The notes: generated by a model from the sequence alone, not told the origin. Shown: positions 5,338 through 30,504, numbered from the stretch's first letter. The stretch is DNA of 32,000 nucleotides from Coprobacillaceae bacterium (GCA_963675515.1 OY776328.1:810001-842000); one strand, 5' to 3'. Numbers and translations: made by a program.

Positions 5338-5358
5338 GTACACAAGGAGGATGTCTAT

Positions 5359-5706
5359 ATGGAACTATTCAACAAGGAATCACTGGAATTGCTTATCAAA
5401 AATACTGACGACAACAGCTATTACCTGCCAAGAAGGCTTTTTGCGACGAATTATTTCGCGACAGTGCGACTGGAAACTAAGCTGGCGTATGCCGCAATCG
5501 CCGAAACGCTGATGCAAAGTCCGCATTACGACAAGAACGGCGCGGCCTATGTCAAAATCGACAATCCCGAAATCATCCACAATCTCAAAAAGATTGCGAA
5601 CAAGGATGTCGACAAGCAGAAAATCAACACTTACTTTGATGAATTGAAGGAAGCCGGCCTTATTGAAGTGGAAGGTATGAACATCAAGGTTCTCAACGTT
5701 GATTAA
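5359..5706 (+). CDS. small hypothetical protein, RepA_N-like (replication initiator A N-terminal / winged-helix-like) domain
   Basis: 115 aa with a strong Shine-Dalgarno. The pattern YYLPRRLF....LETKLAYAAI...........AYV.I....I...L......K....F.EL.E.GLIE resembles the Firmicute RepA_N family from memory. No plasmid or phage context is present. Confidence 0.5.
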   Translation: MELFNKESLELLIKNTDDNSYYLPRRLFATNYFATVRLETKLAYAAIAETLMQSPHYDKNGAAYVKIDNPEIIHNLKKIANKDVDKQKINTYFDELKEAGLIEVEGMNIKVLNVD

Positions 5707-6865
5707 CTTTCTTACCAAACGCTTCATCAGGGATCATGAAAATTTAGAAGATGAGAATGTCCGCGGTAATTACGGGATTTTTGCATCGGTGCTTTCCATC
5801 ATTCTAAATGTGATTCTGGTGGTTTTCAAAATCATGGTAGGCCTGGCTGTCAACTCGATTGCGGTCATTGCCGATGGCATCAACAATATGACCGATGTGG
5901 TTTCCAACTTGGCGACCCTGGTAGGCTTCAGGCTGGCTTTGCAGCTGCCGGATGAAAAACATCCTTATGGTCATGGCCGATTCGAGTATATCAGCGGCAT
6001 CATCATTTCTTTTTTTATCCTGATCGTGGCCTTCGTCACGGTCCGCGATTCGGTGATGAAAATAATCACCAATGAACCGGTTTTCTTCGACGCGGTCGGA
6101 GCGGTAGTCTTGATCGGGGCAATCTTCATCAAATTCTTCATGGCCTATTTCAACCGTGATATCGCCAAGAAGATCGATTCGACCTCGCTGAATGCAGCCG
6201 CCCAGGACAGCCTTAACGATGTGCTGGCAACGACTGCCACGCTTATAGCCTTGATTTTGGCGCGTTTCACGACGCTTCCGGTCGACGGTGTCATGGGGAC
6301 GATAGTCGGCGTGATTGTTTTCCGGTCGGGGATTGAAATATTCAAGGACACGGTCAATCCGTTGCTGGGGCTGGCTCCTTCGCCAGAACTCGTCAAGGAG
6401 ATTGTCCAGTATGTCAACACTGCTGCGGTTTCCAAGGGAAGCCACGATATCATGATCCATGATTACGGTCCATCCCGCAAGTTCATGACTTTGCATGTGG
6501 AGGTCGATGCCCGCGACGATATCATGGCCGTCCATGACGCGATTGACAATCTTGAGTACGACCTGGAGAGGAAGTTCAAGATCAAGACAGTCATCCATAT
6601 GGACCCAATCGACTACAACAACCCTGAACTCGAACCGGTAAGGCGCCAGGTGATGAGTGTCATCAAAAAATACGATGAATGTTACTCGATGCACGACTTC
6701 CGGATGGTTGCCGGTCCGACCCACACAAATCTGATTTTCGATCTGGTTGTCCCGTTTGAACAGGACAAGTCCAAAGATCAAATCAAGGAGGAGCTGACCG
6801 ACCTGATTGAGATTGCCAATCCCAAGTATCGGGTGAAAATGACAGTCGAGCATAAATACTACTGA
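5699..6865 (+). CDS. cation diffusion facilitator family transporter (Zn/Co/Cd/Fe efflux type)
   Basis: 388 aa. Six predicted TM segments are followed by a cytoplasmic domain. CDF motifs are present: AVIADGINNMTDV and HPYGHGRFEYISG. The TTG start overlaps the upstream stop by 8 nt. Confidence 0.88.
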   Translation: MINFLTKRFIRDHENLEDENVRGNYGIFASVLSIILNVILVVFKIMVGLAVNSIAVIADGINNMTDVVSNLATLVGFRLALQLPDEKHPYGHGRFEYISGIIISFFILIVAFVTVRDSVMKIITNEPVFFDAVGAVVLIGAIFIKFFMAYFNRDIAKKIDSTSLNAAAQDSLNDVLATTATLIALILARFTTLPVDGVMGTIVGVIVFRSGIEIFKDTVNPLLGLAPSPELVKEIVQYVNTAAVSKGSHDIMIHDYGPSRKFMTLHVEVDARDDIMAVHDAIDNLEYDLERKFKIKTVIHMDPIDYNNPELEPVRRQVMSVIKKYDECYSMHDFRMVAGPTHTNLIFDLVVPFEQDKSKDQIKEELTDLIEIANPKYRVKMTVEHKYY

Positions 6866-6898
6866 CACAATTCAGGCAGATCATGCCTGTTGGAAAAG

Positions 6899-6923
6899 AA
6901 CCTCAGACCATGGGGTTTTTTTT
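6899..6923 (+). terminator. rho-independent terminator of the CDF gene
   Basis: AACCTC-agaccat-GGGGTT followed by a T8 run. A second small hairpin, CAGGCA-gatca-TGCCTG, lies at 6873-6889. Confidence 0.6.
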
Positions 6924-6925
6924 GC

Positions 6926-8597
6926 GCACAATCAAATCATGCTTATTGAAAGCATCCTACAAGACCGGGCTTATTGATTGATGAAGTTTTCTGGTTTTGA
7001 AAGTGTTTTTAAATATTGGAAAAAGACGACTCTTGTTTTTGAATCGTGGTATATTTGTAAGCAAGGAGCTAACTATATTTAAATCAAGTGTTTTTTGATA
7101 ATTAGCTGAATTTATTGTTAGATTTTTGAAAAGTGAATTTGTGTACACTGAAAACAACCACACAGTGGCCTTGGAATTTATTTTACAGTTGTAAATTATT
7201 TGAGTTCCGATTCGTCAAACGTGATGTTTTCAGATAACAGTTTATAAATTACTCTTATTAGTTTTCTAATCGAATGTCCTTGAGCGCAGCGATGTGATTT
7301 ACCTTGAGAACGTTTTAGGTTATAATAACTATTGAAAGTGGAGTTGTGGGTGCATACTGGAAGAATGCATTGGTAAAGTGTCTTTCTCAAATAACGTGAA
7401 CCACGTTTTGACAAAGCAGTTTGTGGGGCGTTGTATTCTCCGGATTGATATATTCCGGGATCAACACCTGCAAAACCGATAACTTTAGCTGGGGAGCTAA
7501 AATTGTCGAGATCCCCAATTTCACTTAATATTGACATTCCTGAGTATATACCAATGCCAGGGATAGTAAAGATAGGAGAATTTAGTGCGATGGCTAGTTC
7601 TTCTATTTTTTTATCCACTATTTCCAAGTGCTGCTCAGATAAATCAAGGGATTCAATAAGCATTTTGATTTCCATGGTAATTATTTCGTTGTTCTCGCCG
7701 ATTGATTGTTTAGCTGCTTCGCGAATTGCCAAGGCATCAACCTTCACAGTTCTACCTTTTCCTTGTTGCCGCAAGACATTTTTAAGATGAGCAAGATTGG
7801 CATTGGCTAGATTGTATGAGTTCCCAAACTCTCTTAAAATAGCCATGTAAGCCCGAGAATACTTGGTTTTGAACCAACTGTTTATTTCAGGAATTACGGT
7901 ATCAATGCACTTTTGAAGTCTGTTTTTAAGCTGGTTGATATCTTCAGTAAGTGTTGCGTGATACCGGGTAAGTTCTTTGGCTTGTTTCAATGCCAACTTG
8001 CGTTTTGTAACCTTGGTGTAGTTCTTGTCGAACAGCACAGAGCAGATCAGGAAAGTATCTTTCTTATCGTTTTTGGTCTTCCTGATTTTTCCACGACGCT
8101 TGGCATCAGTTGTCAAAGGATTTATCATCCCGACTTCGTAGCTGTTTGATACTAGAAAATTTACGATATTGTCACCGTAGTGACCTGTCGCCTCTAGTCC
8201 GACAATATGCCTTGAAGAATTGAATTTTCTTGTGTTTTTAAGAAATAAGTCAAATCCATTACGGCTATTGGTGAAGAAAAAAGGTTCGACCAACACTTCG
8301 CCATTTGAGTCAACAACGCAGGCACAGTGTTTGAATTTACCTACGTCAATACCGATGTAATACATGATAACACGTCCTTTCGTAATAGGTGAGATGTGAT
8401 ATATCCACATACAAGGTATCAAAGATCCTGGTGCAAAATACAAGTTCAAAGACTTATCTAACTAATTTCAATTCAGATACGAAGATGTGGCAATTTCCTC
8501 CTCGAGGTAGTCAAGCTACAGGAATAAAACATCAAAGTACACATTCACAATTCAATTCTATAACAAAAATAAAAGAAAGGAAAATGTATATCATAAA
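6926..8597 (-). mobile_element. IS110-family insertion sequence (only a bounding interval is given; the exact ends are not resolved)
   Basis: An AT-rich block sits between the CDF terminator and the promoter of the GH1 genes. It contains a single IS110-type transposase. This family lacks classical terminal inverted repeats, so I could not place the ends. Confidence 0.55.
7196..8365 (-). CDS. IS110 family transposase (DEDD N-terminal domain plus C-terminal HhH domain)
   Basis: The start is chosen at MYYIGIDVGKFKHCACVVD (the IS110 hallmark), 28 codons inside the track ORF. Later motifs: VGLEATGHY, IPGIG..SGMSILSEIGD..NF and SG......LSKRGSRYLR..LY. Confidence 0.9.
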   Translation of the reverse strand: MYYIGIDVGKFKHCACVVDSNGEVLVEPFFFTNSRNGFDLFLKNTRKFNSSRHIVGLEATGHYGDNIVNFLVSNSYEVGMINPLTTDAKRRGKIRKTKNDKKDTFLICSVLFDKNYTKVTKRKLALKQAKELTRYHATLTEDINQLKNRLQKCIDTVIPEINSWFKTKYSRAYMAILREFGNSYNLANANLAHLKNVLRQQGKGRTVKVDALAIREAAKQSIGENNEIITMEIKMLIESLDLSEQHLEIVDKKIEELAIALNSPIFTIPGIGIYSGMSILSEIGDLDNFSSPAKVIGFAGVDPGIYQSGEYNAPQTALSKRGSRYLRKTLYQCILPVCTHNSTFNSYYNLKRSQGKSHRCAQGHSIRKLIRVIYKLLSENITFDESELK

Positions 8598-20984: not shown

Positions 20985-21013
20985 TTGATTATTGTCGATA
21001 TGTATGCTATCAT
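20985..21013 (+). promoter_or_regulatory. sigma-A promoter of the ACR3 gene
   Basis: TTGATT (20985-20990), a 17 nt spacer, then TATCAT (21008-21013). Confidence 0.5.
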
Positions 21014-21062
21014 CTCCTTACAAATAGATACATTATCTGATGTGATGAAAAGAGGTTGTTAT

Positions 21063-22118
21063 ATGTCCAAGAATAAATTAGAGGGAATCAGTTTCTTTGA
21101 ACGCTACTTGAGTGTCTGGGTGGCACTATGCATGGTTCTTGGGGTTGCCATCGGCCAGTTTGTGCCGGCCATTCCCGAATTCCTGACCCGGTTCGAGTTT
21201 GCCAATGTTTCAATCCCAATCGCCATTTTGATCTGGCTGATGATCTACCCGATGATGATGAAGGTTGACTTCGCAAGCGTCAAGAATGTCGGCAAGAACC
21301 CCCAGGGTCTCTATGTGACCTGGGCTGTCAACTGGCTGATCAAGCCGTTCACCATGTTTGGGATTGCCTACTTGTTTTTCAATATTGTCTTTGGCAGCCT
21401 TATTTCCAGTGAACTGGCCCAAAGCTATCTTGCCGGAGCGGTGCTGCTCGGGGCGGCGCCATGCACGGCGATGGTATTTGTCTGGTCACACCTGACCAGA
21501 GGCAACAGCGCCTATACGGTAGTGCAGGTTGCGACCAATGACCTGATCATCCTGGTGGCGTTCACTCCGATTGTGGCGTTTCTCCTTGGGGTAACAGGTA
21601 TCGCCATCCCTTGGGATACCCTGATCCTGTCGGTGGTCCTGTTCGTAGTCATTCCTTTGGCTGGCGGGATTTTCACCCGTAGCAATGTGATCAAAAACAA
21701 AGGGGAAGAATACTTCACAAAGAAATTCATTCCCAAGTTCAACAATGTGACTATCGCCGGATTGCTTGTCACCCTGGTCTTGATCTTCTCGTTCCAGGGC
21801 CATGTCATCCTGGAAAATCCGCTGCATATCGTCCTGATCGCAATTCCGCTGATCATCCAGACATTCCTGATTTTCGCACTAGGATACGGGGCAAGTTATC
21901 TGTTGAAACTGCCTCATTCGATATCCGCACCGGCTGGAATGATCGGGGCTTCGAACTTCTTCGAACTGGCCGTGGCCGTGGCGATCGCCCTGTTTGGGGC
22001 TGAGTCGCCGGTGGCTCTTGCGACAATTGTCGGGGTGCTCGTAGAAGTTCCGGTAATGTTGGTCCTGGTGAAATTTGCGAACCAGACCCGCAATTACTTC
22101 CCACAAGAAAAGGCTTAG
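21063..22118 (+). CDS. acr3: ACR3 family arsenite/antimonite efflux transporter
   Basis: The start is chosen at MSKNKLEGISFFERYL. The protein is ACR3-like throughout: FFERYLSVWV, IPIAILIWLMIYPMMMKVDF, WLIKPFTMF. The conserved Cys context is GAAPCTAMVFVW. Confidence 0.85.
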   Translation: MSKNKLEGISFFERYLSVWVALCMVLGVAIGQFVPAIPEFLTRFEFANVSIPIAILIWLMIYPMMMKVDFASVKNVGKNPQGLYVTWAVNWLIKPFTMFGIAYLFFNIVFGSLISSELAQSYLAGAVLLGAAPCTAMVFVWSHLTRGNSAYTVVQVATNDLIILVAFTPIVAFLLGVTGIAIPWDTLILSVVLFVVIPLAGGIFTRSNVIKNKGEEYFTKKFIPKFNNVTIAGLLVTLVLIFSFQGHVILENPLHIVLIAIPLIIQTFLIFALGYGASYLLKLPHSISAPAGMIGASNFFELAVAVAIALFGAESPVALATIVGVLVEVPVMLVLVKFANQTRNYFPQEKA

Positions 22119-22144
22119 ATGAAAAATTCATCCAAGCCTCTTTT
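22111..22144 (+). terminator. rho-independent terminator of acr3; also the 5'-exon hairpin used by the group IIC intron
   Basis: AGGCTTAGATGAA-aaa-TTCATCCAAGCCT (12 of 13 bp) followed by CTTTT. The stop codon TAG (22116-22118) lies in the left arm. The intron begins at the next base. Confidence 0.8.
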
Positions 22145-22666
22145 GTATGCCGGGCATGGCATATATCTAGGTGGTGAAAGTCCACTGTGGGGGTGATTTC
22201 GCAACTGCCAACCACTAGCCAATATCAAGGGTGTCCATCGCGAGGTGGAATCTGAAAGAAGATGGAGGCAAAACCCTGGTCCGAGGAACACGAATCACAT
22301 CAGGCATGTAATAGGGACGAGCGTGCAAAACAACGCAAAGTCATAAGAGGTTGCGGAATGATACTATTACATGTAAATGTGGCGGATATATGGGGTGAAA
22401 GATATATGACCTTATCCCGGGAGATCTTGCGAGGGAGCAATCCTAGTAACAACGAATCGCAAGAAGTCAGCAGACGTCGTAGTAGCGAGGAAGTGGCTGT
22501 AATGGCCATGGAGTGAAGGACTGAATAAATCTATCAGTTATTAAAATTAGGCTTGATTTCATCACGCAAAACCGCAAAGACAGTCGAACACACTAGTAAA
22601 GCCCGAAAGAAGAATGTAGGGAAAGTGAGCATGATGAATAGCGAAATCAATGGAGGTAATGGAAAC

Positions 22667-23950
22667 ATGAAAACTGATAACGAATTACTGGAACAAATGC
22701 TTAGCCATACCAACCTCAAACAAGCGTATGTACAAGTTAAACGAAACAAAGGTGCATGCGGAATTGATGGTATGGATGTCTACCAACTTAAGGGATATCT
22801 GGATGAACATCTGGATGAAATTAAGGCAAGCATAATGAACCGCACGTATAAACCACAACCGGTTAGGAGAGTGGAAATACCAAAAGCCGATGGCGGCACA
22901 AGAAATCTAGGAGTGCCTACAGTCATCGATAGATTCATTCAACAAGCTATCGCCCAGGTACTAACACCAATCTATGAACCAATCTTCAGTGACAACAACT
23001 ATGGTTTTAGACCCAATAGATGTTGTGAAATGGCAGTTATCAAGGCATTGGAATACATGAACGAAGGATTCCAATGGGTCGTGGATATTGACTTGGAGAA
23101 GTTTTTCGACAATATCAACCACGATAAACTTATTACATTGGTGATGAAGGATGTAAAGAGCGGTGAGATTGTATCGCTTATTAGAAAATTCCTGGTAAGT
23201 GGAATTATGATTGACGATGAATATAAGGAATCTATAGTCGGTACTATGCAAGGTGGTCCGTTAAGTCCACTACTATCCAATATATTTCTTAATGAATTGG
23301 ACAAGGAAATGGAAGCTAGGGGGTTACACTATACACGTTATGCCGATGACTGTATGATTTTCGTTGGGAGTAGCAAAGCAGCTGACAGAGTCATGGCATC
23401 AATAAGCAAATTCATCGAAACCAAGCTAGGCCTGAAAGTCAATATGACCAAAAGCAAAGTTGCAAAACCCAACGACATAAAGTATTTGGGATTTGGATTC
23501 TACTATGATACTTTCAACCAGCTTTGGAAAGCAAAACCGCATGCCAAATCAATAAAGACACTTAAAGAAAAATTGAAGGAATTGACTAATCGAAGTTGGT
23601 CAATTCCCTGGGATTATAGATGCTTAAAGATACGGCAACTAATAGTCGGGTGGATAAACTACTATAAAATAGGTAACTTCAAAGGTACGTGCGAAAACCT
23701 CGACGGGTGGATTAGATTTAGAATAAGAATGTATCTCTGGAAGAAATGGAAAACCATTAAGAACAGGAGAAAACAACTTAGAAAACTTGGAGCAAAACGA
23801 TGGCAATATGAATCATGGTCAAACTCTAGGAAATCATACGCCCGGTGTGCTAGCACATTTCTTAAGACAAGGGTCACAAACGAGTTACTCAAAAGAAAAG
23901 GCCTAGTATCACTACTAGACCAATATCAGTTAAAACATATTTCAGTATAG
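22667..23950 (+). CDS. group II intron reverse transcriptase/maturase (RT plus X domain, no En domain)
   Basis: The start is chosen at the ATG 10 nt after GGAGG (MKTDNELLEQML). In-frame ATGs at 22631 and 22634 are alternatives. RT blocks: NKGACGIDGM, IPKADGGTRNLGVPTV.DR..QQA, GFRP.R and YTRYADDCMIF. The maturase X motif (WINYY) is present. There is no HNH or Zn motif at the C-terminus. Confidence 0.9.
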   Translation: MKTDNELLEQMLSHTNLKQAYVQVKRNKGACGIDGMDVYQLKGYLDEHLDEIKASIMNRTYKPQPVRRVEIPKADGGTRNLGVPTVIDRFIQQAIAQVLTPIYEPIFSDNNYGFRPNRCCEMAVIKALEYMNEGFQWVVDIDLEKFFDNINHDKLITLVMKDVKSGEIVSLIRKFLVSGIMIDDEYKESIVGTMQGGPLSPLLSNIFLNELDKEMEARGLHYTRYADDCMIFVGSSKAADRVMASISKFIETKLGLKVNMTKSKVAKPNDIKYLGFGFYYDTFNQLWKAKPHAKSIKTLKEKLKELTNRSWSIPWDYRCLKIRQLIVGWINYYKIGNFKGTCENLDGWIRFRIRMYLWKKWKTIKNRRKQLRKLGAKRWQYESWSNSRKSYARCASTFLKTRVTNELLKRKGLVSLLDQYQLKHISV

Positions 23951-23956
23951 ATTTAA

Positions 23957-23988
23957 ACCGCCGTATGCCGGCCGGCTTGTACGGTGGT
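23957..23988 (+). ncRNA. group II intron domain V
   Basis: ACCGCCGUAU-GCC-ggcc-GGC-uu-GUACGGUGGU. This is a 10 bp lower helix, a 2 nt bulge and a 3 bp upper helix with a tetraloop. The CGC catalytic triad is characteristic of class C. Confidence 0.85.
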
Positions 23989-24015
23989 GTTATCCCGATA
24001 TCGGGATAACACCAC
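23984..24015. repeat. 32 bp perfect palindrome at the intron/RIT left junction
   Basis: GTGGTGTTATCCCGAT|ATCGGGATAACACCAC. The left 7 nt are the 3' strand of intron domain V. The rest is RIT sequence built from the TTATCCCGA motif. Confidence 0.95.
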
Positions 24016-24096
24016 TTATACCGACTTTTGGATTATCCCGACAATTATGTATTTTTGAGGGATAGTCCTTTTTTGGATTATTAAAAGTCGGGATAA
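24009..24096. repeat. RIT left terminal inverted repeat (88 bp)
   Basis: ACACCACTTATACCGACTTTTGGATTATCCCGACAA... matches the reverse complement of 30369-30456 with 4 mismatches. It contains TTATACCGAC (24016-24025), TTATCCCGAC (24033-24042) and the inverted GTCGGGATAA (24087-24096). Confidence 0.95.
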
Positions 24097-24097
24097 C

Positions 24098-25147
24098 TCA
24101 TATCAATCCATAAAGCCTTTTGATCAGTTCTTCATCATTTTCAAAATCCAGATTGTATTTATTAGAAATATTTATTAAGGGGCTAATTGCTTCTGTAGCC
24201 TGCTCAATTGCCTGTTTTTTCATTTCTAATGTTGGCTGCGCATAGAATTCCATTGTTGTAGAAACTTGCGCGTGTCCAAGCCATTCGGAAATAAGTGGTA
24301 GCGGCATTCCACCATGATATAAATGCATGGCTCTAGAATGGCGGAACATATGCGGATAAATATGAATAGGTACTTCTTCATCTACATCATGAGCGGATGC
24401 ACAATATTTATCAATAAATTTTTGAACAGCGTCTGGCGACAGTTGACTGATGATTTCCTTTCGTTTTGAACAAAAAACGAAGCTATCGTCTTTTGATTTT
24501 AAGTGAAATATCGATAGATAATTTTTCAAGTGGTTTACCGTTTTTTCCATAATTGGGACTAATCTTACTTTACTGCCCTTTCCAGTTAGTTTCACGTACG
24601 GGACTTCACTAAATAGGAATAGGTCGCCAATTTTGAGATCCAAAATTTCCTGAATTCTAGCTCCAGTGTCATACATTAGTATCATGAAAACCAAATCCCG
24701 TATTCCTTTTTTTGTTTTTGTGTTTGGCTGCCTAAGTAATGTTTCTAAAACATTTTCGGAGAAGTATTCAATCTGATTATTCTTGGACATCTTTTTCATT
24801 GGGACCGCAAGTAGTTCTTGGTAATATGCCATTAAAGAAATATTACGAGAGGCAACATATTTGTAAAACGAACGTATGGCTGCCAGTTTCTGATTTCTAG
24901 TACTGCAGGACCACCCGGAATATTGCTCACCGTCATCCAAAAAATTCTCAAGCAGCTTAACCGAGGTCATCTCGAAGCAAAATTCAGATAGTTTGATTTT
25001 ATTGGCGCTACATGCATGTTTTAGAAATTGATTCATAGTGATTTTATAGGATTTGATTGTGTTGAAGCTGTTTCCTTTTTGTTTTGGTAAGAAAGACTCA
25101 AAATAATCTCTAATCATTTTGAAGAAACATAATGAATTTTCAGTCAT
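24098..25147 (-). CDS. ritC: tyrosine recombinase, third gene of the RIT trio
   Basis: The start is chosen at MTENSLCFF, whose ATG overlaps the ritB stop. Catalytic residues: TGARIQE (Arg), HMFRHSRA (His-x-x-Arg) and LGHAQVSTTMEFY (His and Tyr). Confidence 0.85.
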   Translation of the reverse strand: MTENSLCFFKMIRDYFESFLPKQKGNSFNTIKSYKITMNQFLKHACSANKIKLSEFCFEMTSVKLLENFLDDGEQYSGWSCSTRNQKLAAIRSFYKYVASRNISLMAYYQELLAVPMKKMSKNNQIEYFSENVLETLLRQPNTKTKKGIRDLVFMILMYDTGARIQEILDLKIGDLFLFSEVPYVKLTGKGSKVRLVPIMEKTVNHLKNYLSIFHLKSKDDSFVFCSKRKEIISQLSPDAVQKFIDKYCASAHDVDEEVPIHIYPHMFRHSRAMHLYHGGMPLPLISEWLGHAQVSTTMEFYAQPTLEMKKQAIEQATEAISPLINISNKYNLDFENDEELIKRLYGLI

Positions 25148-26090
25148 ACTTAGACACCTCAGGAATGATTGAGGAAAACCTTTCCCAATCAACTTCAGAT
25201 GATTTAATTAATTCCTCTGGTAGTAAGTGAATATAATAAGCCGTGTCTTCGAAATTGGAATGACCCATATAGGCACTCATGTAGGGAAGCAATGAATATA
25301 AATCTTCACCATCGTTTAAGAGTTTCATCATGACAGTTGTCGCCCAGCGATGACGTAAATCGTATACTCTTACACGAGCTCTACCACCCTCGGGTTTTAT
25401 CTCATCCCAAATCTTCAAGAATTCCGTCCTTAACCATTTTGAATGATATGGAAGCCCGGTTGGAGATGGAAAAACATAATCAGTATTTGGAAATATTAAC
25501 TTCATTTCATCGATATACTCGCGCATCATATCTGTTACATCAGCTGCCATTGGAATTAGACGTTCCTTATGATTTTTGTTTTTTCTAATAAGTATAGTTC
25601 CGTTATCCAAGTCCAAATCTTTTTTCATTATTTCACGACCTTCGTTTGGCCGAAGACCACAAAAGTATATCAATCGATAGATTACAGATATGATTCTATT
25701 TTTAGCTGTAATCGGTTTGATATATTTTTTACTATCAGCCATTTCAAAAATGGTTTTAAGCTCCATGTTTGTAAATATATAGGGTACATATCTTGTGATT
25801 TTAGGTAAGAAATTCAAATCAAGTACAAAATTGGAAGCTCCGTTCGCAAAAAGGTAAAGTGTAAATTGTCTTATTGATGACATTCTAGATCGAAAACTGC
25901 ACGCCTGCTCAGTTTTCCTTTGCACACACCAAGGCATGATCATTTCTTGAGTAAGCATTGTTTCACTGGGAAAATTTTTCTTCAAGTATCTGGAAAAATC
26001 TTTAAGATACCAAGAAGTTGGTTGCAACGAATACCCTAAATCAATTCGATAATTAATCATTTCGGGGATATATTCATATATGAATTTCAT
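25140..26090 (-). CDS. ritB: tyrosine recombinase, second gene of the RIT trio
   Basis: 316 aa. Catalytic residues: CGLRPNEG (Arg), YDLRHRWAT (His-x-x-Arg) and MGHSNFEDTAYYIH (His and Tyr). Confidence 0.88.
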   Translation of the reverse strand: MKFIYEYIPEMINYRIDLGYSLQPTSWYLKDFSRYLKKNFPSETMLTQEMIMPWCVQRKTEQACSFRSRMSSIRQFTLYLFANGASNFVLDLNFLPKITRYVPYIFTNMELKTIFEMADSKKYIKPITAKNRIISVIYRLIYFCGLRPNEGREIMKKDLDLDNGTILIRKNKNHKERLIPMAADVTDMMREYIDEMKLIFPNTDYVFPSPTGLPYHSKWLRTEFLKIWDEIKPEGGRARVRVYDLRHRWATTVMMKLLNDGEDLYSLLPYMSAYMGHSNFEDTAYYIHLLPEELIKSSEVDWERFSSIIPEVSKYD

Positions 26091-26183
26091 AATCTACCAT
26101 CAAGTGTTTCCATCGATAACGCACACTTTCTCAAACCCTCAACATCAAGTGAAATATATTGCTTAGTAGGTATGACTGATTGG
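26087..26183 (-). pseudogene. probable orphaned 3' end of ritA, left behind by the IS insertion
   Basis: The minus-strand frame is open from the IS3 boundary (..VIPTKQYISLDVEGLRKCALSMETLDGRL*). It ends in a TGA that overlaps the ritB ATG (ATGA), which is the coupling expected for trio genes. Its phase relative to ritA cannot be established. Confidence 0.4.
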
Positions 26184-27340
26184 TGACCTGGATAGGTTAC
26201 AATAAATTAGACAAGATTATAAGGACATGATAAAATCTTGTTAAATTTGTGGAGGATATTCAAAATGACAAAACGCAGACCTAAACGTACTTACACCGAT
26301 GAATTCAGAATCAAAATGGTTCAACTTTACAACAATGGGAAACCCAGAGCGGAAATAATCCGTGAATACGATTTGACAGCTTCAGCGTTCAATAAATGGG
26401 TTAAACGCTTCAATGACACGGGTTCGTTTACTGAAGCCGACAATCGATCAGATCATGACAAGGCGCTTATCAAGCTCCAAAAAGAAAACGAACGACTGAA
26501 GATGGAAAATGATATTTTAAAGCAAGCGGCGCTGATAATGGGACGAAAAGACAAGTAATCTTTGCAAATCAACACAAATACTCTATCGGCGCTATGTGCA
26601 AAGTCTTGAAAATCTCTCGGGCAACTCTCTACTACAAACCCAAAGGGCGTAAAGTGGATTCGAAGCTTGAAGATGAAGTAATAAAATCATTCAAAAACAG
26701 CAAGAAGAATTATGGAACACGCAAGATAAAAGATGACCTGGATGATTTGAACATGGTTGCCAGCAGAAGAAAAATTGCTCAAATCATGGACAAATACGGC
26801 TTGATCAGTAAATACACCATCAAGCAAAGACCAAAGCATTATGGCAAAGTAAATAATGACGATATTGAAAATCTGATCAATAGAAAATTCCAAGCAGAGC
26901 GGCCAATGCAATATTTAACCAGCGACTTGACCTACATCAAGGTGGCTGGAAAATGGAACTATATTTGTCTGATAATAGATTTATACAATCGTGAAATCGT
27001 TGGTAAATCTAGTGGTCAAAACAAAGACGCCAACTTGGTTATTAAGGCATTAAACGATATAAAAAGTGATTTAAGTGATGTCGAAGTATTTCATTCAGAC
27101 CGAGGCTCAGAGTTCAAAAACGAGATGATTGATAGGATATTGGCATTGAATGGAATCAAGAGATCGTTGAGTGCAAAAGGTAAACCGATTGATAACGCAG
27201 TATCAGAATCAATGTACAAAATACTCAAAACAGAATTCGCATTCAATCGACAATTCCGCAGTATCGACGAATTGTCATTGGAACTGTATGATTATGTCAA
27301 CTGGTTCAACAACAAAAGGAAGCATGGGAGCCTTAATTAC
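26184..27340 (+). mobile_element. IS3-family insertion sequence, 3' end truncated
   Basis: It has an orfA/orfB organisation with orfB in the -1 frame. The left end is tentatively at TGACCTGG (26184), with 26173 as an alternative. No right inverted repeat is present. orfB runs straight into the inverted repeat of the next IS. Confidence 0.7.
26265..26558 (+). CDS. IS3 family transposase OrfA (HTH plus leucine zipper)
   Basis: The ATG lies after GGAGGA. It opens MTKRRPKRTYTDEFRIKMVQLY..G....IIREYDL..S.F.KWVKR and continues to a coiled-coil (LQKENERLKMENDILKQAA). Confidence 0.88.
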   Translation: MTKRRPKRTYTDEFRIKMVQLYNNGKPRAEIIREYDLTASAFNKWVKRFNDTGSFTEADNRSDHDKALIKLQKENERLKMENDILKQAALIMGRKDK

Positions 27341-27367
27341 AACCTAAAATCCCGCGTAAATTTATAA
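26513..27367 (+). CDS. IS3 family transposase OrfB (DDE integrase core), C-terminus replaced
   Basis: The -1 frame is open from 26513 and reads ..VIFANQHKYSIGAMCKVLKISRATLYY. A candidate slippery site, A-AAA-G, lies at 26546-26550. The DDE residues are present in LTSDLTY, FHSDRGSEF and DNAVSESMYKILKTE. The last 9 codons (NLKSRVNL*) are encoded by the IS1634-like inverted repeat. Confidence 0.8.
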   Translation, partial: YFKASGADNGTKRQVIFANQHKYSIGAMCKVLKISRATLYYKPKGRKVDSKLEDEVIKSFKNSKKNYGTRKIKDDLDDLNMVASRRKIAQIMDKYGLISKYTIKQRPKHYGKVNNDDIENLINRKFQAERPMQYLTSDLTYIKVAGKWNYICLIIDLYNREIVGKSSGQNKDANLVIKALNDIKSDLSDVEVFHSDRGSEFKNEMIDRILALNGIKRSLSAKGKPIDNAVSESMYKILKTEFAFNRQFRSIDELSLELYDYVNWFNNKRKHGSLNYNLKSRVNL

Positions 27368-29132
27368 CAACACCTAAGGTAGCGGGATGTCGAATGCTTC
27401 ATAGATGATTCGCTGTTCCTTTGTTACTGGAGCAATGATGCTTTGGCCGTTGATATCTTGGGTACGCAACTTTGCAAGGATTTGGATAAGCTCCTTCATC
27501 GTGTGTTTCTTGTACAGTCCCTTGTCATTCATCACTTTGTTGATTTCTGACATGATCACCGATGCAATGAATCCGACAAATAATTTCCCTTGCATCGCAT
27601 TATCGCTATGTACTCTTAACCTTCCAAGGTCGATATTATTTTTTAGACGTAGGAAACCTTTCTCCACAACATCCTTATCCCGATATATCGTGATTGCTTT
27701 TTGAGCATCGCCGATGTCATTACTGATTAGCACAACCCAACCTGCGGTTTTAAGACTACGTTCAACAACGTCTGTCCTGATGTTGACAGTGTATCCACTG
27801 TCCTGTTTTTCAGATTTGCGGATAATTAGATACTTCACGCATTCGGCGTCATGTAGCCATTTTTCAGGGTTTTCAGTAACCTTTTGCCGGAGCAACGCTA
27901 TTGACGTATACAGGTCTTCACGGATTCCCGCAGCCTTTTTAGCGCTGTAGTAAATGTGGGTGTACAATTTGTGTTTGGAATCCCAAGAACGTTCCTTGGT
28001 TACTGCCCTCATTGAATTTCCGTTGATGACAATCGTGTTCTCCACACAATCAATGTCTTTCCGTTCGCTTTCAACCTGGTTCTTGGCAAAGGCCGACGAG
28101 AATGGCACTGAGATTAGGAATTTTACCGGTCCGTCACCCTTTTCATCAAGCATTTTATTAACGTTTGAAGCGCTGAAAAAACCTTTATCCATAACGACGG
28201 TGATGGCCCGGCTGCCAGTTGTGGCTTCGAATTGATCCAGTGTGTTTTTGAGAGTGCGGACATCTTTTTGACTGCCGCTGAATATGGTTTGAAACAAAGG
28301 TAGCCTTTTGGACTCTCCCATGAGCATGCAAATATTGATTTGTGGCAGATTATCATGATCACGATTATAGCCCCACTCCACGTCGTCAATCAACTCCGAA
28401 TAAGATGACGTTGAAGTGATATCCAAAGCCAGGTATTCATCATCTTTGTTTGCAGCATACCAATTTCGGTAGAAATCACTCCGTTGATTTGCGGTAAGAG
28501 AAATCAAAAGTTCGCTTATGCGCTGTGATGTTAATGAACCGACAGGATAGGATTGTGTCCCTGAAATCCATTCATTACAGTACATCATCGGGTCGCTAGT
28601 GGAAATCATGTAACAAGCAAGCATGAATATCTCTTGCCAGTGGTTTGGTATAGATCGTTCCAGGGCATCGATCAAGCCTGATTTTTCGGCAATGGTACGA
28701 TACAAATAGAAAAGGCCATATGAGCGTATAGAAGACTTCCGGATATCATCGATTGAAAACACTTTCTCGGTAGATGGGATCTCTATTTCGTGCCCAGCTA
28801 AACGAAGCTCTTCCAAATACTCCGGTTTATAGATCTTTTGTCCGGTCTTGGGATCAATTTTTCCAATGGAACGACGCTTTTGTCTTACCTGCCCGTCTTT
28901 CGTGCGGAATCCCTCAGCCAGATAAATATATTGATACCGGCCAACCTTCTGAATAACCTCATAACTCATCCAAACCACCTCTCTGTTGTTATAATAATTA
29001 TAACAACATCTAAGATAAAAAGCAAGCTATTTAGGGTGTTGATCAATAGAAAAACGGCTATATATCAAGGTTTCATGGATTTGAAGTATTAAAATATAGT
29101 TGTTGTTATAAAAATTTGCGGGAGCTTAGGTT
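27341..29132 (-). mobile_element. IS1634-family insertion sequence
   Basis: Imperfect inverted repeats of about 36 bp are present. The left copy, AACCTAAaaTCCCGCgtAAATTTATAACAACAcCTA (27341-27376), matches the reverse complement of 29098-29132. They enclose one IS1634-type transposase gene. Confidence 0.75.
27374..28969 (-). CDS. IS1634 family transposase
   Basis: The start is chosen at MSYEVIQKVGRYQYIYLAEGFR..DG.VRQKR.SIGK, the typical N-terminus, 5 nt after GAGGTGG. It is about 531 aa and DDE-type. Confidence 0.82.
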   Translation of the reverse strand: MSYEVIQKVGRYQYIYLAEGFRTKDGQVRQKRRSIGKIDPKTGQKIYKPEYLEELRLAGHEIEIPSTEKVFSIDDIRKSSIRSYGLFYLYRTIAEKSGLIDALERSIPNHWQEIFMLACYMISTSDPMMYCNEWISGTQSYPVGSLTSQRISELLISLTANQRSDFYRNWYAANKDDEYLALDITSTSSYSELIDDVEWGYNRDHDNLPQINICMLMGESKRLPLFQTIFSGSQKDVRTLKNTLDQFEATTGSRAITVVMDKGFFSASNVNKMLDEKGDGPVKFLISVPFSSAFAKNQVESERKDIDCVENTIVINGNSMRAVTKERSWDSKHKLYTHIYYSAKKAAGIREDLYTSIALLRQKVTENPEKWLHDAECVKYLIIRKSEKQDSGYTVNIRTDVVERSLKTAGWVVLISNDIGDAQKAITIYRDKDVVEKGFLRLKNNIDLGRLRVHSDNAMQGKLFVGFIASVIMSEINKVMNDKGLYKKHTMKELIQILAKLRTQDINGQSIIAPVTKEQRIIYEAFDIPLP

Positions 29133-30327
29133 ACAAAACACCCGTACAATACAGGTTGTCCTTATAAAAATTGTCTAAAAAAGTGTTGACTTTCCAACCC
29201 AAAAGCTGGGCAATCATTGTAACCGGAACACCGTTGATAATCAATTGAGTCCCAAACATCCGCCTAATAGAGTGGAAAGTGTTCCCGGTTTTAAGGGATG
29301 GTTCAATTCCAGCCTTTAATAGATACCTTCTAAAAAAAGAAGCGATAGAACAGCCGTCTTTAAGCCCCGTAAAAGGAGCTATGGATCTTATAAAAATACT
29401 ATTATCATCTGTTTTGGGTCTTCCATTTAGAATGTAGTCCGCAATTGCATTACAGACACTCTCAGTTAATGGCACTGATATGGGACTATTTGTTTTCCCC
29501 TGAACTATATTTAATTTGCGTTTTTTCCAATCAATATCTTCAAGCTGAATCCGTACTATATCTCCAGCTCTTAGCCCTGTCATTGCACCCAATATTATAA
29601 TCGCATAATTTCTTTTTCCGGTAGGTGTCTCCCTATCAATTGAATTTAAAATTCCTACAAGATCAATCATATCTATCGGCGGATATAATGCCCTGTCTCG
29701 TATTTTACCAAAGGAAACGATGGAGCTTATATCAAAATCAATCTTTTTATTTCTGTACAAATTAACTAAATATTTTTTCAAACAAGTGAGTATTCTATCC
29801 ATGGATTTTGGGTTATCCTTAGAGATGATTTTAATAAATTCCACTATATCGCTAGTACTTATTAATTTCGGTTGCAAAATATCATGATTGTTTAGAAAAT
29901 TTGAAAATAAATATAGGATTCGCTCTTCAAATTGAAGGGTCCTAATAGATACATCTCTATTTTTCAAATATTCTTTTATTGTCATTTTGAACCCTGATGA
30001 TATAGGGATTTCATCCTTAAATGTGAAAACTTTCCACTTGAAGGAACCGAAATCATTAAGTTCGGTGATCATTAAGACGCCACGCACTCTTTTATTATAG
30101 GTGGTCCTACTAATAATTTTGTTTTGAAGTTGCGAAAGATAGAGCTTTAGCAGTGAATCCATAATTTCTTGACTATAGTTGATTTGGTTTAAGTCAGAAT
30201 ATCTTTTCAAAATGGGGTTAAAGTAGCTGGATTCGTAGGCCTGAATGGTAAGTTCATTATAGCCTTGAGACTTCAGGTTATTTAAAGCAAGCTGAACTAA
30301 TTCGTCGATACTATTCAAATTTTTCAT
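29131..30327 (-). CDS. ritA: tyrosine recombinase, first gene of the RIT trio; its stop codon is created at the IS junction
   Basis: 398 aa. Catalytic residues: TGLRAGD (Arg), FHSIRRMF (His-x-x-Arg) and LLGWKVNTFLDNFY (Trp in place of the second His, then Tyr). In the TAA stop, the T comes from RIT DNA and the AA from the first two bases of the IS1634-like inverted repeat. Confidence 0.85.
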   Translation of the reverse strand: MKNLNSIDELVQLALNNLKSQGYNELTIQAYESSYFNPILKRYSDLNQINYSQEIMDSLLKLYLSQLQNKIISRTTYNKRVRGVLMITELNDFGSFKWKVFTFKDEIPISSGFKMTIKEYLKNRDVSIRTLQFEERILYLFSNFLNNHDILQPKLISTSDIVEFIKIISKDNPKSMDRILTCLKKYLVNLYRNKKIDFDISSIVSFGKIRDRALYPPIDMIDLVGILNSIDRETPTGKRNYAIIILGAMTGLRAGDIVRIQLEDIDWKKRKLNIVQGKTNSPISVPLTESVCNAIADYILNGRPKTDDNSIFIRSIAPFTGLKDGCSIASFFRRYLLKAGIEPSLKTGNTFHSIRRMFGTQLIINGVPVTMIAQLLGWKVNTFLDNFYKDNLYCTGVL

Positions 30328-30348
30328 TTCAAACTACCTCCTAACTAC

Positions 30349-30378
30349 ATTATAGACTGAAAATAAAATTATCCCGAC
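30349..30378 (-). promoter_or_regulatory. possible ritA promoter overlapping the innermost recombinase-binding motif
   Basis: On the minus strand, TATAAT (30354-30349) lies upstream of AGGAGG (30342-30337). The -35 position (30377-30372, TCGGGA) lies inside the motif GTCGGGATAA of the right inverted repeat. Confidence 0.4.
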
Positions 30379-30456
30379 TTTTAATAATACAAAAAGAGAC
30401 TATCCCTCAAAAATACATATTTGTCGGGATAATCCAAAAGTCGGTATAAGTGGTGT
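30369..30456. repeat. RIT right terminal inverted repeat (88 bp)
   Basis: It is the reverse complement of 24009-24096, identical at 84 of 88 positions. It ends ..GTCGGTATAAGTGGTGT. Confidence 0.95.
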
Positions 30457-30504
30457 GAGAGGTCGAAAATAAATAGGGAAACTATTTATTTTCTCCTACT
30501 CGAT
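30457..30504 (+). ncRNA. displaced group IIC intron domain VI and 3' splice site
   Basis: Removing 23991-30456 joins domain V (..GUACGGUGGU), GU and this segment. The fold is as follows:
- 30457-30459 pair with 30499-30501.
- A30498 is bulged.
- 30460-30462 pair with 30495-30497.
- A small internal loop follows.
- 30465-30476 pair with 30482-30493, closing a GGAAA loop.
A30498 is the 7th nucleotide from a ...GAU end at 30504. That matches the branch-point geometry and the terminal A-Y rule. Confidence 0.65.

What the first reader, a model, noticed from the sequence alone, without database searches (positions are those of the whole stretch)
23984..30456. Recombinase-in-trio (RIT) element with 88 bp terminal inverted repeats
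Three tyrosine recombinase genes lie in the same orientation, and all three retain R..HxxR..(H/W)..Y catalytic residues. The second and third are translationally coupled (ATGACTGA overlap).

The whole unit is bracketed by 88 bp inverted repeats: 24009-24096 against 30369-30456, identical at 84 of 88 positions. This architecture matches the RIT elements described from comparative genomics. As far as I know, their transposition or integration mechanism, target choice and biological role are still largely uncharacterised.

Each end carries several copies of one 10-mer, TTAT(A/C)CCGAC. On the left these are direct copies at 24016 and 24033 and an inverted copy at 24087, and the right end mirrors them. 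These copies are plausible binding sites for the three recombinases.

The innermost copy at the right end overlaps the -35 region of a likely ritA promoter. That position would allow autoregulation.
Basis: partly seen in the sequence, partly recalled or inferred. Interest (0 to 1): 0.75.

Follow-up and report, generated by a model that had tools for sequence, protein, structure and literature searches.

The report
Broken RIT element inside an intron
This is a recombinase-in-trio (RIT) mobile element, disabled here by two nested insertion sequences, and it sits at one exact position inside a group II intron, the same position its relatives occupy in many unrelated introns, which gives the first clue to where and how these poorly understood elements integrate.

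Summary
The 88-bp inverted repeats, the 10-mer copies and the ATGACTGA overlap are real, and the three proteins are orthologues of RitA, RitB and RitC. This copy is broken. An IS3-family element (26189-29196), itself carrying an IS1634-family element, splits ritA. The real H..Y lies 3 kb away at 26087-26188.

The element is integrated inside a group II intron (22145-30504), between domain V and domain VI. RIT-free copies of the same intron have one GTGGTGT there. In the window that 7-mer flanks the insert as a direct repeat. Inside it lie an 18-bp palindrome P and an inverted copy of the 7-mer.

The same layout, DV-X'-P-X-RIT-X'-DVI, occurs in a 94.7% identical RIT in an intron whose reverse transcriptase is only 36% identical. 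It also occurs in Clostridium estertheticum (both orientations), in Succinivibrio, and in 27 of 30 scorable metagenome junctions.

I infer site-specific integration across a 7-bp overlap from a palindromic double core site. No held paper links RITs with introns.

The parts
22145..23990 (+). Group II intron, 5' portion: domains I-IV, the reverse transcriptase/maturase ORF (22553-23950) and domain V (about 23958-23987). The intron starts with GTATG directly after the T-run of the terminator hairpin of the ACR3 arsenite-efflux gene.
   Evidence: Rfam RF02001 gives 127 bits and RF01998 gives 45 bits. TIGR04416 gives E 9e-121. The 5' boundary comes from alignment with three RIT-free copies that diverge upstream of GTATG. 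Domain V was located by the hairpin finder.
23984..23990 (+). X' (GTGGTGT), the left copy of the 7-bp overlap or core. It consists of the last 4 nt of domain V, the 2-nt linker and the first nt of domain VI.
   Evidence: The empty sites L019-L021 have a single GTGGTGT. The register comes from the RF00029 alignment.
23991..24008 (.). P, an 18-bp perfect palindrome TATCCCGAT|ATCGGGATA. It is made of two abutting inverted copies of the 10-mer (23990-23999 and 24000-24009). It belongs to the RIT, not to the intron.
   Evidence: (I15). P is absent from RIT-free introns. It is present next to domain V in 37 junctions.
24009..24015 (.). X (ACACCAC), the internal inverted copy of the 7-bp overlap. It forms the outer tip of the ritC-side inverted repeat.
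   Evidence: X differs at 4/7 positions from the L013 copy, while the rest of the repeat differs at 2/81.
24009..24096 (.). The ritC-side 88-bp terminal inverted repeat. It carries 10-mers at 24016 and 24033 (direct) and at 24087 (inverted).
24098..25147 (-). ritC, 349 aa, with intact R..HxxR..H..Y and 47 residues after the catalytic Tyr.
   Evidence: PF00589 gives E 2.9e-31. It is the best match to pHG1 RitC, E 4.6e-62.
25140..26090 (-). ritB, 316 aa, with intact catalytic residues. It overlaps ritC by 8 nt.
   Evidence: It is the best match to pHG1 RitB, E 5e-44.
26087..26188 (-). The displaced 3' end of ritA. It encodes ...GHQSVIPTKQYISLDVEGLRKCALSMETLDGRL, which includes the second His and the catalytic Tyr. 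It overlaps the ritB start by 4 nt (ATGA).
   Evidence: In silico removal of the IS restores a 409-aa ORF.
26189..29196 (+). IS3-family insertion sequence that splits ritA. Its inverted repeats start TGGATAGG.. and TGGAAAGT... It is flanked by a 3-bp target duplication ACC (26186-26188 and 29197-29199). Its orfB is itself interrupted.
   Evidence: NF033516 gives E 5.5e-68. The ends were read.
27341..29132 (-). IS1634-family insertion sequence nested in IS3 orfB. Its transposase is at 27374-28978 and it has 36-nt inverted repeats.
   Evidence: NF033559 gives E 1.5e-73. The inverted repeat is pair I2.
29197..30327 (-). The 5' part of ritA, about 377 residues: two core-binding domains and most of the catalytic domain. 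The annotated ORF runs on into the IS3 end, to 29131.
30369..30456 (.). The ritA-side 88-bp terminal inverted repeat. The innermost 10-mer (30369-30378) lies upstream of a TATAAT at 30349-30354 (minus strand).
30450..30456 (+). X' (GTGGTGT), the right copy of the 7-bp overlap. It is a direct repeat of 23984-23990.
30457..30504 (+). Domain VI and the 3' end of the interrupted group II intron (GAGAGG...CCU[A]CUCGAU, with a bulged branch-point A).
   Evidence: Alignment with RIT-free introns, the RF00029 register, the domain VI finder and the fold of the healed sequence, -39 kcal/mol, z -6.25.

Best explanation
The region holds a defective RIT element. In intact form it is about 3.45 kb and comprises ritA-ritB-ritC, 88-bp terminal repeats, the 18-bp palindrome P and one inverted 7-mer.

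Shown:
- The element lies inside a terminator-associated (IIC-like) group II intron, exactly at the domain V / domain VI junction.
- The 7 bp GTGGTGT (last 4 nt of DV, the 2-nt linker and the first nt of DVI) is single in RIT-free copies of the intron. It is present on both sides of the insert, as the shared core of attL and attR would be.
- Relatives occupy the homologous position in unrelated introns, in both orientations, and P is always on the DV side.
- An IS3-family element later split ritA, and an IS1634-family element then landed in that IS3.

Inferred:
- The excised form joins the two ends into a long palindrome, IR-X'-P-X-IR.
- That palindrome contains two core-type sites in opposite orientation, each a 10-mer, a 6-7 bp overlap and a 10-mer.
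- Recombination of either core with the intron's 7-bp overlap by the Rit tyrosine recombinases inserts the element in one or the other orientation.
- The overlap sequence is exchanged with the target, so it records earlier sites.
- This copy can no longer supply RitA, and ritBC now lie 3 kb from the region upstream of ritA where any promoter would be. It is probably immobile unless complemented by the other copies in the genome.
- The host intron is almost certainly splicing-dead. That should be harmless because it lies downstream of a terminator.
For: Identity as a RIT:
-.

Disruption of ritA:
-.

Empty sites:
- Three RIT-free copies of an intron whose RT is 83% identical read ...ACGGTGGTGT|GAGAGG... 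without interruption.
- A RIT-free copy of the second intron type (RT 89% identical to that in L013) reads ...GCGGTTTGAT|AAGGGG..., whereas L013 has GTTTGAT on both sides of its RIT.
- RF00029 covers both empty sites above its gathering score and fixes the register.
- The window has no RF00029 hit.
- The computationally healed window sequence folds into DV plus DVI with a bulged A.

Independence of insertions:
- The RIT in the window and in L013 is 94.7% identical in nucleotide sequence, but the host intron RTs are only 36% identical.
- The 7-mer differs at 4/7 positions while the rest of the repeat differs at 2/81.

Generality:
- C. estertheticum carries two copies in opposite orientation.
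- Succinivibrio dextrinosolvens shows the same arrangement.
- In 27 of 30 X'-P-X junctions a DV-like hairpin ends exactly 4 nt into X', against 2.3% at random positions.
- A strict finder detects DVI on the other side in at least 10 loci.

Support for the model:
- P is always on the DV side.
- In C. estertheticum the asymmetric P flips together with the RIT, exactly as predicted.
- Heterologous overlaps occur at attL or at the internal X (L014, L053, L062, L033).
Against: - No circular or tandem junction (10-mer, X', P, X, 10-mer with repeats on both sides) was found in any locus. The excised form is therefore purely inferred.
- The coupling of P orientation to RIT orientation rests on one pair of copies.
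- The arms of the intron site do not resemble the 10-mer, so how the target is recognised is unexplained.
- One relative (L017/L018) sits at the same DV/DVI site without P.
- A few contigs show DVI on both sides or DV on both sides (L059, L088, L072, L061). These need inversion between copies or assembly chimeras to explain.
- More distant RITs use other targets, so intron targeting is specific to a clade.
- I could not read Ricker et al. 2013, so parts of the end architecture may already be described.
Confidence: 0.75

Rival explanations
1. The element is an intact, autonomous RIT bounded only by the 88-bp inverted repeats, with three active recombinases.
For: The repeats, the 10-mers and three PF00589 ORFs on one strand are present.
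Against: ritA is split by a 3-kb nested IS, and its apparent C-terminal W..Y is IS3-derived. The inserted unit also includes P and the inverted 7-mer outside the part of the repeat that is mirrored.
Confidence: 0.03
2. The RIT is passenger cargo of a composite group II intron that spreads by retrohoming. On this view the intron association reflects intron mobility, not RIT target choice.
For: RIT and intron are always adjacent. Both RIT-bearing copies in C. estertheticum lie in the same intron family.
Against: The same RIT (94.7% nt identity) lies in introns whose RTs are only 36% identical. It occurs in both orientations within one intron family. RIT-free copies of the same introns exist. The 7-bp core is duplicated. 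At least nine different host overlap sequences are seen. An insertion between DV and DVI should abolish the ribozyme.
Confidence: 0.05
3. Integration is site-specific into DV/DVI, but the intermediate is not a double-stranded circle. It would be a folded single strand or a hairpin-ended molecule, in which the 95-nt repeats plus P pair to form one double-stranded core site (as in integron attC or CTX phage attP), and the Holliday junction would be resolved by replication.
For: X is the exact reverse complement of X' in 24 of 37 junctions, as stem pairing would require. X'-P-X folds as a perfect hairpin. Mobilome data for Sphingobium RITs showed exonuclease-protected DNA but no detectable circle junction, and the authors proposed hairpin intermediates (PMC5737581). 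The target is itself two adjacent hairpins.
Against: There is no direct evidence either way. A long palindromic junction would also escape detection by read mapping in a double-stranded circle. The integrated structures are predicted equally well by both versions.
Confidence: 0.25
4. The group II intron homed into a site next to a pre-existing RIT end, so the intron targets the RIT rather than the reverse.
For: IIC introns do target hairpin-containing sites, and the RIT end contains a palindrome.
Against: The intron's 5' exon is the ACR3 terminator, far from the RIT. The RIT interrupts the intron between DV and DVI, and DVI plus the 3' splice site lie on the far side of the RIT.
Confidence: 0.02

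Closest known systems
RIT (recombinase in trio) elements of Cupriavidus metallidurans CH34 and C. necator pHG1 (Van Houdt 2009/2012; Ricker 2013)
   Same: - Three adjacent tyrosine recombinase genes in the order ritA-ritB-ritC with 4-8 bp overlaps.
- Orthology of each protein to its counterpart.
- Terminal inverted repeats.
- Several copies per genome.
- The pHG1 copy also carries a 32-nt palindrome (6-mer, 20-bp palindrome, inverted 6-mer) at one end (L022 3791-3822).
   Different: - The host is a Firmicute.
- The repeats are 88 bp, against the 34 bp quoted for the archetype (PMC10214605).
- This copy is broken by IS elements.
- The clade has a defined target, the DV/DVI junction of group II introns. 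For RITs in general, target specificity and movement are listed as not tested (PMC10214605, Table 1).
Tn554-related elements and strand-biased circularizing elements (SE) / GInt
   Same: They are multi-recombinase tyrosine 'transposons' with site-specific insertion, and 6-7 bp of flank is carried from the donor site to the new site (PMC10214605). The heterologous overlaps in L014, L053, L062 and L033 resemble this.
   Different: - Tn554 has two recombinases plus TnpC and, from my own knowledge, no terminal inverted repeats.
- SE and GInt have a fourth, non-recombinase protein (PMC10214605).
- None of these is known to target introns.
- The only NCBIfam mobile-trio hit (GmtY) scores 18.9 bits against a cut-off of 340.
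Tn916-type conjugative transposons (coupling sequences)
   Same: Both involve a tyrosine recombinase crossover in a 6-7 bp region that need not be homologous, so that flanking bases travel with the element. This comparison rests on established knowledge and was not tested here.
   Different: There are no conjugation genes, three recombinases instead of Int plus Xis, and long inverted repeats with a palindromic double core.
Integron attC sites and CTX-phage attP (folded single-strand substrates of tyrosine recombinases)
   Same: Imperfect or perfect inverted repeats could fold to build the recombination site, and the overlap bases are exchanged with the partner site.
   Different: No evidence here for a single-stranded intermediate. 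The recombinases are Rit proteins, not IntI or XerCD.
Bacterial class C (IIC) group II introns, as the host element
   Same: The intron is inserted directly after a Rho-independent terminator hairpin. It has a CGC catalytic triad in a short DV, an RT/maturase ORF, and DVI with a bulged A.
   Different: This intron is interrupted between DV and DVI by a 6.47-kb insert. Class assignment was not checked by phylogeny.

Membership tests
RIT element | Three adjacent tyrosine recombinase genes on one strand in the order ritA, ritB, ritC | tested here: met
   ORFs on the minus strand 30327 to 24098. tblastn assigns A, B and C in that order here and wherever the trio is complete among about 90 related loci. 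ritA is interrupted by a 3-kb IS insert.
RIT element | Each protein belongs to its own subfamily (RitA, RitB, RitC) | tested here: met
   Reciprocal best BLASTP matches to the pHG1 trio: E 1.6e-49, 5e-44 and 4.6e-62. Cross-paralogue hits are 1e-12 or weaker.
RIT element | Short overlaps (4-8 bp) between the ORFs (PMC3414803) | tested here: met
   ritB/ritC overlap by 8 bp (ATGACTGA, 25140-25147). ritA/ritB overlap by 4 bp (ATGA, 26087-26090) once the displaced ritA tail is recognised.
RIT element | RitA has two sequential core-binding domains (PMC8138268) | tested here: met
   AF2 model with mean pLDDT 84.8. Four-helix bundles at residues 7-93 and 111-192 precede the catalytic domain at 220-409.
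RIT element | RitC has an extra conserved C-terminal helix (PMC8138268) | not tested
   Only the sequence was examined: 47 residues follow the catalytic Tyr. No structure was predicted.
RIT element | All three proteins carry the R..HxxR..H..Y catalytic residues | tested here: inconclusive
   RitB and RitC have them. RitA has them only in the healed ORF. As encoded in the window, the second His and the Tyr are separated from the rest by the IS insert.
RIT element | Terminal inverted repeats | tested here: met
   88 nt with 84/88 matching, and 88/88 in the intact relative L013.
RIT element | Multiple copies within a genome | tested here: met
   Cluster look-up: three RitA variants (409, 409 and 398 aa), four RitB entries (two full-length, two fragments) and two RitC variants, all on the same 2.88-Mb contig. 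The DNA of the other copies could not be fetched.
Group II intron (host element) | Ribozyme domains plus an RT/maturase ORF | tested here: met
   RF02001 and RF01998 hit above their gathering scores. TIGR04416 gives E 9e-121.
Group II intron (host element) | Contiguous domain V - domain VI (Rfam RF00029) | tested here: not met
   No RF00029 hit in the window even at E<1. RIT-free relatives score 45.7 and 42.0 bits against a gathering score of 40. DV and DVI are present but 6.47 kb apart, and the healed sequence folds correctly.
Tn554 family | Two tyrosine recombinases plus TnpC, and no terminal inverted repeats | tested here: not met
   The third gene is a tyrosine recombinase and 88-bp inverted repeats are present. 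That Tn554 lacks terminal inverted repeats is from my own knowledge, not from a paper read here.
Phage or ICE integrase | A single integrase with an arm-binding N-terminal domain, next to phage or conjugation genes | tested here: not met
   Best NCBIfam similarities are to Xer-type simple recombinases, all far below their cut-offs. There are no phage or conjugation genes inside the repeats.

The most novel reading that the evidence does not exclude
A large clade of RIT elements, found in Firmicutes and also in Succinivibrio, consists of obligate site-specific parasites of group II introns. They integrate into the 7 bp that bridge the catalytic domain V and the branch-point domain VI.

They do so from a perfectly palindromic double core site (IR-X'-P-X-IR), which lets them enter in either orientation while still matching the overlap. 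The overlap bases keep a record of earlier host introns.

Other RIT clades use the same X'-P-X architecture on other highly conserved targets, for example the DLDPQ-coding stretch of parA. If so, RITs as a whole are targeted integrative elements rather than transposons with unknown target choice.
Probability: 0.55. Interest if true: 0.8.

Novelty: new variant of a known kind. Interest (0 to 1): 0.7.

Why it matters
RIT elements are widespread, yet the papers I could read state that their movement, target choice and intermediates have never been established (PMC10214605 Table 1; PMC5737581; PMC3414803).

The comparisons started from this window give several concrete, testable items:
- a defined target, the DV/DVI junction of group II introns;
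- a 7-bp crossover region with matching empty sites;
- the full extent of the mobile unit, including the palindrome P;
- a model for the excised form.

This makes the long-open question of how a trio of tyrosine recombinases moves DNA directly approachable with a 60-bp target and a 200-bp donor site.

It also shows one selfish element specialising on the most conserved part of another, and inactivating it. The window itself is a four-deep nest: IS1634 in IS3 in a RIT in an intron.

Tried and rejected
- **Genome scan with the 398-aa ORF.** It returned 12 loci. Most matched only its last 20-30 residues, often close to a contig end. Those residues are encoded by the IS3 right end, so most are IS ends, not RITs (L012 matched residues 238-275 and is a separate case).
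- **Exact-protein look-ups.** Look-ups of P0001, window RitB, window RitC, P0110 and P0120 found nothing on record. The other copies in the source genome could not be examined.
- **Metagenome scan with the 27-nt repeat core.** No hits.
- **Megablast of the whole region against plasmids.** Only IS3 fragments were found.
- **Search for a circle or tandem junction in all loci.** None found.
- **Consensus promoter scan upstream of ritA.** None found.
- **First domain V regex.** It was too narrow and was replaced by a stem-plus-triad finder with a measured background.
- **Similarity between the 10-mer and the intron site arms.** Looked for by eye and not found.
- **Intron homing into the RIT.** Considered and rejected on the empty-site evidence.
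- **Ricker et al. 2013.** The paper could not be read.
- **Organism identity.** Not pursued. The only lead is that an RT homologue 69% identical to the window's is named Amedibacterium intestinale by its source.
Full report
**1. Checking the observation**

The inverted repeat 24009-24096 / 30369-30456 is real: 88 nt, 95% complementary. The 10-mer TTATMCCGAY occurs nine times in the window against 0.30 expected, and none of 100 shuffles reaches nine. Eight of the nine copies lie at the ends of the element. Two more, at 23990 and 24000, abut each other and form an 18-bp perfect palindrome.

Four long ORFs lie on the minus strand between the repeats, and two on the plus strand. Three of them hit PF00589. 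The others are an IS1634-family transposase and the two ORFs of an IS3-family element. The ritB stop and the ritC start overlap by 8 nt, ATGACTGA, as stated.

**2. ritA is broken**

A protein search found an intact 409-aa homologue, P0001, from the same 2.88-Mb contig. It is 99% identical over residues 1-379 of the window ORF, with identity ending at residue 377 (...AQLLG), and the two sequences diverge after that. P0001 continues HQSVIPTKQYISLDVEGLRKCALSMETLDGRL. That tail is encoded at 26087-26188 on the minus strand and overlaps the ritB start by ATGA.

Between the two ritA pieces lies an IS3-family element, 26189-29196.
- Its terminal repeats start TGGATAGG... and TGGAAAGT....
- It has a 3-bp target duplication, ACC.
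- Its orfB is itself interrupted by an IS1634-family element at 27341-29132 (repeat pair I2).

This also explains why the genome scan with this ORF mostly returned hits to its last 20-30 residues, often close to contig ends. Removing the insert and one ACC in silico restores a 1230-nt ORF identical in its C-terminus to P0001.

**3. Is it a RIT?**

Yes, on four grounds.
- Each of the three proteins is the reciprocal best match of RitA, RitB or RitC of the classical Cupriavidus necator pHG1 element. The E-values are 1.6e-49, 5e-44 and 4.6e-62, while cross-paralogue matches are 1e-12 or weaker.
- The order A-B-C holds wherever the trio is complete among about 90 related loci.
- An AlphaFold model of RitA (mean pLDDT 84.8) shows two successive four-helix bundles before the catalytic domain. 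This is the feature reported to distinguish RitA (PMC8138268).
- Cluster membership shows at least three RitA variants on the same 2.88-Mb contig.

**4. What lies around it**

Directly left of the element is a group II intron. Rfam D1-D4 models hit at 22234-22521, and an RT/maturase ORF lies at 22553-23950. No domain V-VI hit (RF00029) is found, even at E<1.

A perfect 32-nt palindrome, GTGGTGTTATCCCGAT|ATCGGGATAACACCAC (23984-24015), joins the intron to the left repeat (I15).

An intact relative of the RIT was recovered on an ENA contig (L013).
- Its healed nucleotide identity to the window RIT is 94.7% and its repeats match 88/88.
- It also abuts a group II intron RT on its ritC side, through a palindrome GTTTGATTATCCCGAT|ATCGGGATAATCAAAC.
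- The two intron RTs are only 36% identical.
- The 7-mer next to the terminal 10-mer differs at 4 of 7 positions between the two RIT copies. The other 81 nt of the repeat differ at 2 positions.
- In each copy the 7-mer is the same at both ends in inverted orientation, and its complement is the 3' end of the local intron's domain V.

**5. Empty sites**

Homologues of the window's RT led to a 2.6-Mb genome with three RIT-free copies of an intron whose RT is 83% identical. Their 3' ends read ...GTACGGTGGTGT|GAGAGGTCGG...CCTCCTACTCGATT, and the three copies diverge after that.

The window has the same left half up to GTGGTGT at 23990. It has the same right half from GTGGTGT at 30450 onward. The RIT therefore sits inside the intron, and one 7-mer has become two direct copies.

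The same genome has a RIT-free copy of the second intron type (RT 89% identical to that in L013). It reads ...GCGGTTTGAT|AAGGGG..., whereas L013 has GTTTGAT on both sides of its RIT.

RF00029 covers both empty sites above its gathering score (45.7 and 42.0 bits). It places the 7-mer as the last four nucleotides of domain V, the two-nucleotide linker and the first nucleotide of domain VI, in both intron types.

The healed window sequence folds into a canonical domain V and a domain VI with a bulged A (-39 kcal/mol, z -6.25).

The intron starts at 22145, directly after the T-run of the ACR3 terminator hairpin, and ends at 30504. The window therefore holds a four-level nest: IS1634 in IS3 in ritA of a RIT in a group II intron.

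**6. Generality**

*Complete genomes.* Clostridium estertheticum CP077624 carries two copies of a RIT whose RitA is 37% identical to the window's. Both lie in copies of one intron family, one with ritA next to domain V and one with ritC next to domain V. Succinivibrio dextrinosolvens shows the same arrangement.

*Metagenome loci.* A metagenome scan with a RitA alignment gave 80 further loci.
- Across all loci, 37 junctions of the form X'-P-X-10-mer were found.
- In the clade with 35% or more RitA identity, 30 such junctions have enough flank to score. In 27 of these a domain-V-like hairpin (AGC/CGC triad plus stem) ends exactly 4 nt into X'. The rate at random positions is 2.3%.
- The opposite end is followed by a domain-VI-like hairpin and a ...CTCGAT-type intron end in at least ten loci by a strict finder, and in more by eye.
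- At least nine different 7-mers occur, each fitting the local domain V.
- P is always on the domain V side.

**7. How it most likely works**

*Shown.* The inserted unit is P + X + repeat + ritCBA + repeat, and the target's 7-mer flanks it as a direct repeat. That is what conservative site-specific recombination leaves behind: a common core at attL and attR.

*Inferred.* Joining the two ends gives repeat-X'-P-X-repeat, a palindrome of about 210 bp.
- It holds two core-type sites, each with two inverted 10-mers around a 6-7 bp spacer. The sites lie in opposite orientation and have identical overlaps.
- Crossing over between the target 7-mer and one core gives DV-X'-P-X-[ritA...ritC]-X'-DVI.
- Using the other core gives DV-X'-P(inverted)-X-[ritC...ritA]-X'-DVI.

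This predicts three things: both orientations should occur, P should always be on the domain V side, and P should flip with the element. The two C. estertheticum copies, whose P is asymmetric at three positions, match this exactly. That is only one pair of copies, however.

*Overlap exchange.* Some junctions have a 7-mer that does not fit the local domain V.
- L014, L053 and L062 have GTTCTGT, which is the native overlap of another intron class.
- L033 has an internal X that matches another class.

This suggests that overlap bases are carried between sites, as in Tn916, Tn554 and SE elements (the comparison with Tn554 and SE rests on PMC10214605).

*Open points.*
- The arms of the intron site do not resemble the 10-mer. 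Target recognition is therefore unexplained. It is tempting, but untested, to assign it to RitA with its doubled DNA-binding domain.
- A folded single-strand or hairpin intermediate predicts the same integrated structures and cannot be excluded. Mobilome data on Sphingobium RITs found protected DNA but no circle junction (PMC5737581).

**8. This copy**

ritA is split, and ritBC are separated by 3 kb of IS DNA from the region upstream of ritA. The two repeats have diverged at 4 positions. This element is therefore probably immobile unless the other copies in the genome act in trans. The interrupted intron cannot form a contiguous DV-DVI and is presumably dead. Because it lies after a terminator, this should cost the host nothing.

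**9. The promoter claim**

The consensus scan finds nothing. By eye there is a perfect TATAAT at 30349-30354 (minus strand), 21 nt upstream of the ritA start codon. The -35 position (TCGGGA, 3/6) falls inside the innermost 10-mer. In several clade members a -10-like hexamer follows the innermost 10-mer, 16-23 nt start to start, and in others only weaker TATGCT/TATATT-type hexamers are seen. Occlusion of the promoter by a bound recombinase is plausible but untested.

**10. Comparison with what is known**

RITs were defined by comparative genomics (PMC3414803). A 2023 overview lists their target specificity, empty-site formation and mode of movement as not tested, and quotes 34-bp terminal repeats (PMC10214605). 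Palindromic ends of 47-51 bp were noticed in Sphingobium (PMC5737581).

The classical pHG1 element also shows a 32-nt palindrome of the X'-P-X type at one end. Another clade sits in the DLDPQ-coding stretch of parA genes with the same architecture. The end structure therefore appears general, and the target appears clade-specific.

No paper in the held library mentions both group II introns and recombinase in trio. I could not read Ricker et al. 2013, so prior description of parts of this cannot be excluded.

**11. Verdict**

The RIT call is right, but the claim of three intact catalytic sets is wrong. The element itself is a defective member of a known family. The interest lies in what its context reveals: an exact, conserved integration site and a crossover region for a family whose mechanism is open.

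Noticed in passing
window 26189-29196 and 27341-29132: Nested insertion sequences. An IS3-family element with a 3-bp ACC duplication lies in ritA, and an IS1634-family element lies inside IS3 orfB. IS3 orfB resumes at about 29135-29167 (KTPVQYRLSL*).
   Followed up: yes
window 22111-22149: The group II intron begins (GTATG, 22145) directly after the hairpin and T-run that end the ACR3 arsenite-efflux gene (20985-22118). This is typical of terminator-targeting (IIC) introns. In L013 the second intron type likewise follows a terminator hairpin, downstream of an ArsC gene. In L014 the intron follows a T-box leader upstream of a tRNA synthetase gene.
   Followed up: partly
window 7196-8449 (minus strand): An IS110-family transposase gene (NF033542, E 4e-60) lies elsewhere in the window. 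The window thus holds at least five different mobile elements.
   Followed up: no
L001-L012 (genome contigs): In most of these loci, contigs of uncultured gut Bacilli MAGs match only the last 20-30 codons of the window's truncated ritA ORF, often close to a contig end. That stretch is the IS3 right end, so related IS3 elements are widespread there. L012 instead matched residues 238-275.
   Followed up: partly
L107-L111 (RitA P0062 clade, about 30% identical): These RITs interrupt parA-like genes at the codons for the conserved DLDPQ motif, in both orientations. They show the same X'-palindrome-X structure, and the 6-7-mer matches the local parA sequence. One locus has a relaxase gene nearby, so the context may be a plasmid.
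   Followed up: partly
L024 (Bacillus sp. S3 plasmid NZ_CP039728, locus 4640-8480): A RIT whose RitA is 28% identical to the window's is flanked on both sides by fragments of two different group II intron RT genes. The fragments break near the YADD-coding region and face each other in inverted orientation. This is a different site within introns, or a rearrangement between copies.
   Followed up: no
L059, L088, L072 and L061: Some metagenome contigs show domain VI on both sides of the RIT, and one shows domain V plus palindrome on both sides. This could come from inversion between oppositely oriented copies or from assembly chimeras between copies.
   Followed up: no
L022 3791-3822 (C. necator pHG1): The classical proteobacterial RIT has a 32-nt palindrome TAGCGC-AAATGTGCTGCAGCACATTT-GCGCTA at its ritA side, and GCGCTA forms the tip of both terminal repeats. 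This is the same X'-P-X design, with no intron nearby.
   Followed up: partly
L081, L085, L090, L091, L092, L097, L100: More distant RITs (30-33% RitA identity) also have X'-P-X. In most (L081, L085, L090-L092, L097) the flank before X' ends in ...CTTG / ...TGCTTG(C), in some as part of a hairpin containing AGC. That hairpin is not a canonical domain V, and the target is unidentified. L100 does not show this flank.
   Followed up: no
L017/L018 (RitA P0003): This RIT lies between a canonical domain V and a domain VI of what seems to be an ORF-less intron. It has no palindrome P, and its two flanking 7-mers are unequal (GGTTCGG and GTTTGGG).
   Followed up: partly
window 27675-27684: One extra exact match to the 10-mer (TTATCCCGAT) lies inside the IS1634 transposase gene. 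It is probably a chance match.
   Followed up: no
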